Assembly: GCA_951406725.2 (NCBI GenBank)
Contig: OX597840.1
Location: 3,162,001-3,226,000 of the forward strand
Reading direction: 5' to 3'
Length of the DNA stretch: 64,000 nucleotides
DNA from: Octopus vulgaris
Lineage: Eukaryota
Under the pieces are notes generated by a model. That model was not told the origin of the DNA, did not search any database, and saw only the letters and a program-made list of their open reading frames with translations. Positions 37,473-39,340 of the stretch are shown here, piece by piece (position 1 is the stretch's first letter; each line of letters opens with the position of its first letter). Both the position numbers and the translations under genes were made by a program.

Positions 37473-38140
37473 AAGGTGGCGCTGGCAGAATCGTTAGCAC
37501 GCTGGGCAAAAATGCTTAGCGGTATTTCACCTGTCGTTACGTTCTGAGTTCAAATTCCGCCGAGGTAGACTTTGCCTTTCATCCTTTCGGGGTCGATAAA
37601 TTAAGTACCAGTTACGCACTGGGGTCGATGTAATCGACTTAATAACTATGTCGGTCCTTGTTTGTCTCCTTTGTGTTTAGCCCCTTGTGGGCAATAAAGA
37701 AATAGGTATTTCGTCTGCCGTTACATTCTGAGTTCAAATTCCGCCGAGGTCGACTTTGCCTTTCGTCCTTTCGGGGTCGATTAAATAAGTACCGGTTATG
37801 CACTAGGGTCGATATAATCGACTTAATCCGTTTGTCTGTCCTTGTTTGTCCTCTCTATGTTTAGCCCCTTGTGGGCAATAAAGAAATAGGTATTTCGTCT
37901 GCCGTTACGTTCTGAGTTCAAATTCCGCCGAGGTCGACTTTGCCTTTCATCCTTTCGGGGTCGATTAAAAAAAAAACCATTACGCACTGGGGTCGATATA
38001 ATAGACTTAATACCTATGTCGGTCCTTGTTTGTCCTCACTGTGTTTAGCCCATTGTGGGTAGTAAAGAAATAGGTATATCGTATCTTTTTATGTTCTGAG
38101 TTCAAATTCCGCCGAAGTCGACTTTGCCTTTCGTCCTTTC
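37473..38140 (+). mobile_element. SINE-B head + three tailed 184-bp units + untailed SINE-B remainder
   Basis: GGTATT-type junctions at 37521, 37705, 37889 and 38073 (184-bp period). Confidence 0.9.
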
Positions 38141-38410
38141 CCAAAATATCCGGTTTTTTGCTTATAAAACAAAGGATTAATATGGCAACGAAGTGTGGTA
38201 AAACTTGGCGAGCTGGACGTTATTCGTAGCGACATTTCTTCCTTCTGTGTGTTCTGAGTTCAAACTGTACCGAGCTTGACTTTATCTTTCATCTTTTCGA
38301 AATCGATAAAGCACACACCAGTCAATCACCAGAGTAGAAGCAATCAATTTGCTCCATCCACCAAAATTTCAGGTCAGGTACCTTTAGAAGATATGAATTA
38401 TTAAAGCATT

Positions 38411-39340
38411 AAGGCGGCGGGATAGCAGAATCGTTAGCATGCCGTAAAAAATGCATAGCGGTATTTCGTCTGCAGTTACGTTCTGAGTTCAAATTCCGCC
38501 GACGTCGTCCTTGCCTTTCATCGTTTCGGGGTCGATTAAATAAGTACCAGTTACGCACTGGGGTCGATATAATCGACTTGATCCGTTTGTCTGTCATTGT
38601 TTGTTCTCTCTGTGTTTAGTCCATTGTGGGTAATAAAGAAATAGGTATTTCGTCTGCCGTTATGTTCTGAGTTCAAATTCCGCCGAGGTCGACTTTGCCT
38701 TTCATTCTTACGGGATCGATTAAATAAGTACCAGTTATGCACTGTGGTCGATATAATCGACTTAATCCGTTTGTCTGTCCTTGTTTGTCTTCTCTGTGTT
38801 TAGCCCCTTGTGGGTAGTAAAGAAATAGGTATTTCGTCTGCCGCAACGTTCTGAGTTCAAATTCTGCCGAGGTCAACTTTGCCTTTCATCCTTTCGGCGT
38901 CGATAAATTAAGTACCTGTTGCGTACTGGTGTAGATATAATAAGGCGGCGAGCTGGGAGGAACCTTAGCACGCCAGGCGAAATGCTTAGCGGTATTCCGT
39001 CTGCTGTTACGTTCTGAGTTCAAATTTCACTGAGATCGACTTTGCCTTTCATCCTTTCGGGGGTCGATTAAATAAGTACCAGTTACGCACTGGGGTCGAT
39101 ATAATCGACTTGATCCGTTTGTCTGTCATTGTTTGTTCTCTCTGTGTTTAGCCCCTTGTGGATAGTAAAGAAATAGAAGAAGGTATTTAGTCCGTCTTTA
39201 TGTTCTGACTTTAAATTCCGATGACGTCGACTTTGCCTTTCGTCATGTAACGAACGATAAAAAAAGTACCAGTTTAGCACTGGAGTCGATATAATCGACC
39301 TACACCTTCGCCCCTTTTGTGTTTATTGTAGAAAGGATTA
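38411..39340 (+). mobile_element. Two adjacent SINE-B copies carrying two and one tailed 184-bp units
   Basis: Heads at ~38411 and ~38942; junctions at 38460, 38644, 38828 and 38991, 39182; last segment is a diverged SINE-B with the ordinary ..TTGTAGAAAGGATTATT tail. Confidence 0.9.

What the first reader, a model, noticed from the sequence alone, without database searches (positions are those of the whole stretch)
37473..39340. Self-nesting 184-bp retroposon: a headless SINE-B body with a LINE tail, stacked at one fixed site inside its parent SINE
Seen: three loci here have the structure SINE-B head ..GC(T/A)TAGC|GGTATT - [body + foreign tail ending AAAGAAATA]x(3,2,1) - GGTAT.. untailed SINE-B remainder, clearly more diverged in two of the three. 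Units start at the same GGTATTTCG register with a 184-bp period. The unit lacks the A box. Two subvariants (TTAATACCTATGTC vs TT(A/G)ATCCGTTTGTC) are mixed within arrays, so arrays are not simple local slippage of one copy. Inference: a young non-autonomous element derived from SINE-B homes into SINE-B copies, regaining the Pol III promoter from the host head, and propagates as multimers, possibly through a circular or multimeric RNA or RT template jumping. Target-specific Tx1-clade elements are established; a SINE that targets its own parent family is not something I recognise.
Basis: partly seen in the sequence, partly recalled or inferred. Interest (0 to 1): 0.8.

Follow-up and report, generated by a model that had tools for sequence, protein, structure and literature searches.

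The report
Octopus SINE that stacks inside itself
A common short jumping repeat in what is likely an octopus genome carries a tail resembling that of a site-choosy LINE and sits in head-to-tail stacks at one spot inside older copies of its own family, but also in simple repeats elsewhere, so it likely prefers rather than strictly targets its own kind.

Summary
In detail: six 184/185-bp units (3+2+1) start at one GGTATT register between SINE heads and tail-less remainders, and two remainders are older than the units. The tail is homologous to the 3' end of an L1/Tx1-group LINE stacked in (TATC)n in this window. The element is not confined to that site: 3 of 6 loci in the window lie elsewhere (an antisense SINE copy with a 16-bp target duplication, (TA)n, (TATC)n), two of them headless multimers. 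All six 3' junctions are followed by a TAT motif. Tail-to-GGTATT junctions are abundant in contigs of two organisms. Best reading: a SINE subfamily swapped to a LINE partner whose TAT-type target occurs in the SINE's own body. Read-through multimer RNA then likely primes and joins in register, so headless units stack up. Host-derived heads are supported for one of three pairs only. Circular RNA, transcription and empty alleles are untested or inconclusive; no ribozyme was found. Each ingredient has a precedent (SINEU-3/Tx1-Mar, Zepp, R2 read-through priming); I found no report of a SINE targeting its parent family. New variant of a known kind.

The parts
37473..37520 (+). SINE head D (A-box-like); 44/47 to the head majority with 2 gaps, so not clearly old
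37521..38072 (+). Three 184-bp units D1-D3 (body with B-box-like motif plus LINE-type tail), variants v1,v2,v1
38073..38180 (+). Remainder D: old-type body, internally deleted, ending in the ordinary SINE tail
38411..38459 (+). SINE head E, 42/49 to the head majority
38460..38827 (+). Two units E1, E2 (both v2)
38828..38941 (+). Remainder E: young-type body without tail, running directly into head F
38942..38990 (+). SINE head F, 42/49 to the head majority, 35/49 to head E
38991..39175 (+). Single unit F1 (185 bp, v2)
39176..39181 (+). Six extra bases GAAGAA at the 3' junction, like a re-copied piece of the tail end
39182..39340 (+). Remainder F: old-type body plus ordinary SINE tail
14950..15709 (+). 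Locus A: four headless units inside an old SINE copy lying on the opposite strand; a 16-bp target duplication at both ends and at two inner junctions (14950, 15309, 15501, 15694)
16052..16196 (-). Locus B: one 5'-truncated tailed unit in (TA)n; third sequence variant
16888..17437 (-). Locus C: three headless units with canonical inner junctions, in (TATC)n; no remainder
6785..8050 (-). Stack of four 3' ends of an L1/Tx1-group LINE, each followed by TATCT; ORF2 C-terminus at 7620-7396; its last 50 nt are homologous to the unit tail

Best explanation
This is a younger subfamily of an abundant SINE whose tail resembles the 3' end of an L1/Tx1-group LINE; that LINE's enzyme likely copies it into TAT-containing sites, one of which (GGTATT) lies in the SINE's own body, so units would stack up inside older family members. 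Inferred steps: (1) the enzyme nicks at TAT[C/T/A][T/A]-type sites; (2) a copy landing in a family member leaves tail-GGTATT; (3) Pol III would read from the head through several units, which lack T4 stops; (4) the GGTATTTCG after each tail would pair with the nicked target and favour family members; (5) the cDNA would be joined upstream by homology at a unit start, so products look headless and in register. The same multimer RNA would also land in microsatellites and other GTATT sites. Local duplication likely adds units in some arrays (A3/A4, C2/C3).
For: Tail vs LINE 3' end: score 56.5, best of 2000 shuffles 29.5 (alignment). The LINE fragment's 68%-identical relative has RT and zf-RVT; its full-length relatives are endonuclease-RT proteins closest to L1 ORF2p among solved structures. 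4 of 4 LINE ends and 6 of 6 element loci are followed by a TAT motif. Locus A splits an antisense SINE copy (5 of 5 comparisons above all 200 shuffles) with a perfect 16-bp duplication. A and C hold canonical tail-GGTATTTCG junctions in foreign targets, so at least dimers moved. 3 of 3 occupied hosts but 2 of 13 free copies have GGTAT at the site (Fisher p=0.018). Hitting that site in 2 of 5 independent events has p=7e-4 against all GTAT[TA] sites, 0.017 against GGTAT sites. Remainders D and F are old-type within 10 nt of the junction, and F has 6 extra bases. 13 of 14 units lack a T4 run. Loose ends reading as tail before the unit start: 274 contigs in X2, 540 in X4; after the tail the majority letters are GTATTT (401 and 764 contigs). 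Precedents: PMC4494074, PMC6795142.
Against: The LINE tail is only about 75% like the unit tail, so the actual partner was not found, and Tx1 rather than L1 clade was not tested with references. First units do not repeat their remainder's first 17 nt at D (10/17) or F (11/17), so there is no plain host-copied duplication there (E 15/17). Heads are more diverged than first units only for E-F (p=0.00025); D-E and D-F give p=0.65. Lack of T4 is weak alone (P 0.05-0.25 per unit, copies not independent). The GGTAT contrast could come from RNA-donated bases. D, E and F lie within 2 kb and may not be independent. The raw-read run gave 8 reads; only 19 of 1,483 loose-end rows were shown, with agreement 0.41-0.47 after the tail, so no genome-wide fraction was obtained. 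No RNA evidence.
Confidence: 0.6

Rival explanations
1. Headed multimeric master copies (head, units and sometimes a remainder) were retrotransposed whole or 5'-truncated, as with dimeric SINEs; the fixed site reflects one ancestral event, not repeated targeting.
For: Head D is 44/47 to the majority, as young as units; D-E and D-F heads are as alike as their first units. 3 of 4 multi-unit loci begin v1 then v2, as from a shared master. First-unit starts are young-type, not copies of the remainder.
Against: Remainders D and F are 54/68 alike and 78-84% to units, older than units at 92%. E1 and F1 are 170/184 alike while their heads are 35/49. Junction F has extra bases.
Confidence: 0.15
2. The arrays are SINE-derived satellite seeds made at DNA level by unequal crossing-over, gene conversion or slippage between tailed and ordinary copies.
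For: A3/A4 (96.6%) and C2/C3 (96.2%) are nearest neighbours within their arrays; E1 and F1 share tail variants that are rare in the contigs (about 4-5%), as after local conversion. Such arrays are described in squamates (PMC10702118).
Against: 6 of 6 D/E/F units have their nearest relative in another locus. D and F switch to old-type sequence within 10 nt of the junction. The 16-bp duplication at A and the 5' truncations at A, B and C are retrotransposition marks.
Confidence: 0.12
3. One reading: a dedicated headless 184-nt element that homes to the parent SINE and propagates through a circular or self-processed RNA, like a retrozyme.
For: Exact unit register; both headless multimers (A, C) start within about 13 nt of a unit start; v1 carries a 9-nt arm complementary to the junction ATAGGTATT (8-9 of 9 in 6 of 6 v1 units, 5-6 of 9 in 5 of 5 v2 units with such a junction).
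Against: 3 of 6 loci are off-site. No Rfam family at gathering score in the window and two chance-level hits at E<=10 in the locus; no hammerhead core or HDV loop motif on either strand of array C; folding z=-1.18; 0 of 15 consensus pairs covary. Mixed variants do not fit rolling copies of one circle.
Confidence: 0.1

Closest known systems
SINEU-3 with Tx1-Mar, crocodilians (PMC4494074; passages and sections 14, 20 read)
   Same: A SINE mobilised by a Tx1 LINE, inserting preferentially into another repeat family (313 of 347 copies), in tandem copies sandwiching a 16-bp duplication as at locus A; transcription from the flanking target was proposed.
   Different: Its target is an unrelated Mariner transposon; here the preferred target is the element's own parent family, the preference is looser, and multimers with canonical junctions move to other sites.
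Zepp / ZeppL LINEs of green algae (PMC8226300; passages read)
   Same: Nested insertion into existing copies gives tandem arrays of 3' ends.
   Different: Autonomous, clustered at centromeres, variably truncated; here non-autonomous, dispersed, and of fixed unit length.
R2 and its read-through RNA (PMC6795142; passages read)
   Same: Co-transcription from the target, with target sequence after the 3' end annealing to the DNA to set the start and raise efficiency; the model for steps 3-5.
   Different: Restriction-like endonuclease, strict 28S target and a ribozyme; none seen here.
SINE-derived satellites and tandem SINEs (PMC10702118; parts 1, 3, 4 of 5 read)
   Same: Tandem partial-SINE units of 70-290 nt, rarely with both SINE termini.
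   Different: Treated as DNA-level satellites, subtelomeric and homogenised; here short, dispersed, heterogeneous arrays with retrotransposition marks.
Non-LTR retrozymes (PMC7229834; abstract only)
   Same: Dispersed tandem units of 170-400 nt in animals.
   Different: Defined by a type I hammerhead and circular RNAs; no hammerhead found here.

Membership tests
tRNA-derived SINE | Head with Pol III A and B boxes | tested here: inconclusive
   Box-like motifs by eye against recalled consensus; ARAGORN and Rfam find nothing
tRNA-derived SINE | 3' tail shared with a LINE | tested here: met
   Homology to LINE 3' ends in the window, above all 2000 shuffles
tRNA-derived SINE | Dispersed, high copy, non-coding, with 5' truncation and target duplication | tested here: met
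   14 tails in 6 loci; 16-bp duplication at A; 78,000-183,000 contigs laid per run in three contig sets
tRNA-derived SINE | Pol III transcription | not testable with these tools
   No raw RNA reads were offered
Tx1-mobilised target-specific SINE (SINEU type) | Partner is a Tx1-clade LINE | tested here: inconclusive
   L1 group shown; no named Tx1 references for a tree; tail about 75% alike
Tx1-mobilised target-specific SINE (SINEU type) | More than 20% of flanks are one repeat family (criterion in PMC4494074) | tested here: inconclusive
   3 of 6 loci at the site, 4 of 6 in the family, but clustered and few; no genome-wide fraction
Tx1-mobilised target-specific SINE (SINEU type) | Tandem copies sandwiching a duplication | tested here: met
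   Met at locus A only; not at D or F
Strictly site-specific homing element | All insertions at one site of one target | tested here: not met
   3 of 6 loci are off-site
Non-LTR retrozyme | Type I hammerhead in each unit | tested here: not met
Non-LTR retrozyme | Circular RNA | not testable with these tools
   No RNA reads laid
SINE-derived satellite (sSat) | Long arrays homogenised within a locus | tested here: not met
   1-4 units; nearest relative in another locus for 10 of 14 units
Deu/Nin-domain SINE | Conserved central domain | not tested
   Resemblance is recalled only; no domain sequence was found in text

The most novel reading that the evidence does not exclude
A SINE that parasitises its own family: each tail is followed on the RNA by the family's own target sequence, which guides the LINE enzyme into older copies, where promoterless units take over the host's Pol III head and become new multimeric sources, a self-feeding loop of RNA-guided homing and promoter capture.
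Probability: 0.35. Interest if true: 0.75.

Novelty: new variant of a known kind. Interest (0 to 1): 0.5.

Why it matters
If right, a change of LINE partner alone can turn a SINE into a self-targeting, array-building element, which offers a retrotransposition route from SINEs to tandem repeats. It would also be a natural, very high-copy test of how RNA-DNA pairing downstream of the tail steers target choice. The tail is far less represented relative to the body in one of three organisms laid (0.15 vs 1.2-1.3, a rough measure), so the expansion looks lineage-specific and datable. SINEs make up about 12% of the Octopus vulgaris assembly and most young families are unclassified (PMC13282606).

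Tried and rejected
No whole genome is held. Pattern scans found no usable loci: one chance hit in viral contigs, 0 in metagenome contigs, 0 in genome contigs, 0 in viral contigs; LINE relatives in metagenome contigs: 30 candidates, 0 confirmed. Empty-site test: no contig piece listed spans locus F, so inconclusive; run X23 laid only 8 reads, one with the tail-to-start joint. Ribozyme: none found; junction structure without covariation. A host-copied duplication at D and F was rejected. My first head comparison (37) misaligned head D; replace it and weaken the claim that heads are old. Earlier findings: 3 look-ups, 0 results. Ten paper searches listed no paper on this element or on a SINE targeting its parent family; only the top-ranked listings were seen. 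Repbase, Dfam, Ohshima and Okada 1994 and Kojima and Fujiwara 2004 could not be consulted, and no supplements were read, so the family may already be catalogued.

Full report
Observation. The region holds three composites: head D with three units and a remainder, head E with two, head F with one. The repeat finder gives 184-bp spacing, and all nine unit or remainder starts begin GGTAT. Over the first 68 nt, units are 91.8% alike (36 pairs), while remainders match them at 84% (D), 90% (E) and 78% (F). Each of the six units has its nearest relative in another locus, so these arrays are not slippage of one copy. The tail motif occurs 14 times in the window against 0.16 expected. The host is likely an octopus: a LINE fragment here is 95% identical over half its length to a protein named for Octopus bimaculoides.

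Eight of the 14 tails lie in three other loci. Locus A (14950-15709) has four headless units. Its flanks are the two halves of an old family copy on the opposite strand (5 of 5 comparisons above all 200 shuffles). A perfect 16-bp duplication starting GTATT bounds it and recurs at two inner junctions. Locus B is one truncated unit in (TA)n. Locus C is three headless units in (TATC)n with no remainder. So 3 of 6 loci are off the claimed site. A and C contain the canonical tail-GGTATTTCG junction in targets that could not supply it, so at least dimers were moved as such.

The tail. At 6785-8050 (minus strand) lie four stacked LINE 3' ends, each followed by TATCT. One carries an ORF2 C-terminus. 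Its 68%-identical relative has RT and zf-RVT domains, whose full-length relatives add an AP-type endonuclease and are closest to L1 ORF2p among solved structures. This shows the L1/Tx1 group; Tx1 proper is inferred from the microsatellite target and was not tested. The last 50 nt align with the unit tail at about 75% (score 56.5, best of 2000 shuffles 29.5), so this is a relative of the partner, not shown to be the partner. All six element loci are also followed by a TAT motif.

Is the family site preferred? GGTAT is intact in 3 of 3 occupied hosts and 2 of 13 free copies (p=0.018), though those bases could be donated by the RNA. Counting E and F as one event, 2 of 5 hits on that site has p=7e-4 against 611 GTAT[TA] sites and 0.017 against 117 GGTAT sites. 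Laying public data on locus F, contigs with tail sequence before the unit start number 274 (X2) and 540 (X4). After the tail the majority letters are GTATTT in 401 and 764 contigs, with agreement only 0.41 and 0.47. Only 19 of 1,483 loose-end rows were shown and counting was incomplete, so this shows that the junction is common and the flanks mixed, not a fraction. Tail depth relative to body is 1.2, 1.3 and 0.15 in X2, X4 and X9 (not a copy number). The raw-read run gave 8 reads. No empty allele could be judged.

Are the heads the host's? E1 and F1 are 170/184 alike but their heads 35/49 (p=0.00025); the two pairs with D show no such gap (p=0.65), and head D is 44/47 to the majority. First units do not copy their remainder's start at D (10/17) or F (11/17). 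This fits joining by homology, which can leave donor sequence upstream, and it means a headless mobile species cannot be told from a headed one here. The remainders at D and F are old-type within 10 nt of the junction and F has six extra bases, which fits RT priming better than recombination.

RNA features. 13 of 14 units lack a T4 run, compatible with Pol III read-through but weak alone. Variant v1 carries a 9-nt arm complementary to the junction (8-9 of 9 in six v1 units, 5-6 of 9 in five v2 units), which suggests it arose in a tail-GGTATT context; no covariation supports the pairing. Three of four multi-unit loci begin v1 then v2, hinting at a shared master. No ribozyme was found, and the dimer does not fold unusually well (z=-1.18).

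Mechanism. Shown: units, register, tail homology, the duplication at A, off-site loci, older remainders, a common junction in two organisms. Inferred: a LINE enzyme with a TAT-type preference; first landing in a family member; Pol III read-through from a head; pairing of the downstream GGTATTTCG with the nicked target; upstream joining at a unit start. Local duplication likely added A3/A4 and C2/C3 (96-97% alike within arrays). I put this at 0.6, whole-master copying at 0.15, DNA-level satellite seeding at 0.12 and a dedicated circular headless element at 0.1.

Comparison. SINEU-3 is a Tx1-driven SINE that prefers a Mariner transposon, stacks around a 16-bp duplication, and was proposed to be transcribed from its target (PMC4494074). 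Zepp nests in its own copies (PMC8226300). Target sequence after the 3' end raises R2 accuracy and efficiency (PMC6795142). SINE-derived tandem arrays and multimers are known (PMC10702118). Retrozymes need a hammerhead (PMC7229834, abstract). Passages of PMC13282606, PMC12988792, PMC4824008 and PMC5804259 did not describe this element. Ten searches listed no SINE targeting its parent family, but repeat databases were not available. It works like SINEU-3 with Zepp-style self-nesting and fails the tests for a strict homing element and for a retrozyme. Verdict: real, a new variant of a known kind, interest 0.5.

Noticed in passing
window 6785-8050 (-): Four 5'-truncated 3' ends of an L1/Tx1-group LINE stacked at (TATC)n; a GATA-microsatellite-targeting family for which one paper search listed no description.
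   Followed up: partly
window 16425-16665: A near-perfect palindrome of about 240 bp, MITE-like, between loci B and C (seen).
   Followed up: no
window 39880-40270 (+): A different, longer SINE with a tRNA-like head and an internal (AT)/(GT) run; resembles the OR-type octopus SINEs by recall only.
   Followed up: no
window 33050-36290: At least eight old copies of the parent SINE, all on the + strand, each within or next to (ATT)n runs, suggesting a strand-specific TAA-repeat target for the parent family.
   Followed up: no
window 38460-38643 and 38991-39175: E1 and F1 share tail variants seen in only about 4-5% of laid contig depth: local conversion or a common donor.
   Followed up: partly
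window 38828-38990: Remainder E stops 4 nt before the end of the body and runs straight into head F, as after a nested insertion or an RT template jump; head E and remainder F could be one host copy.
   Followed up: no
run X23: A 2026 DNA run with the same species label laid only 8 reads from 1,934 million letters, against tens of thousands of contigs in other runs; unexplained (filter, label or sample type).
   Followed up: no
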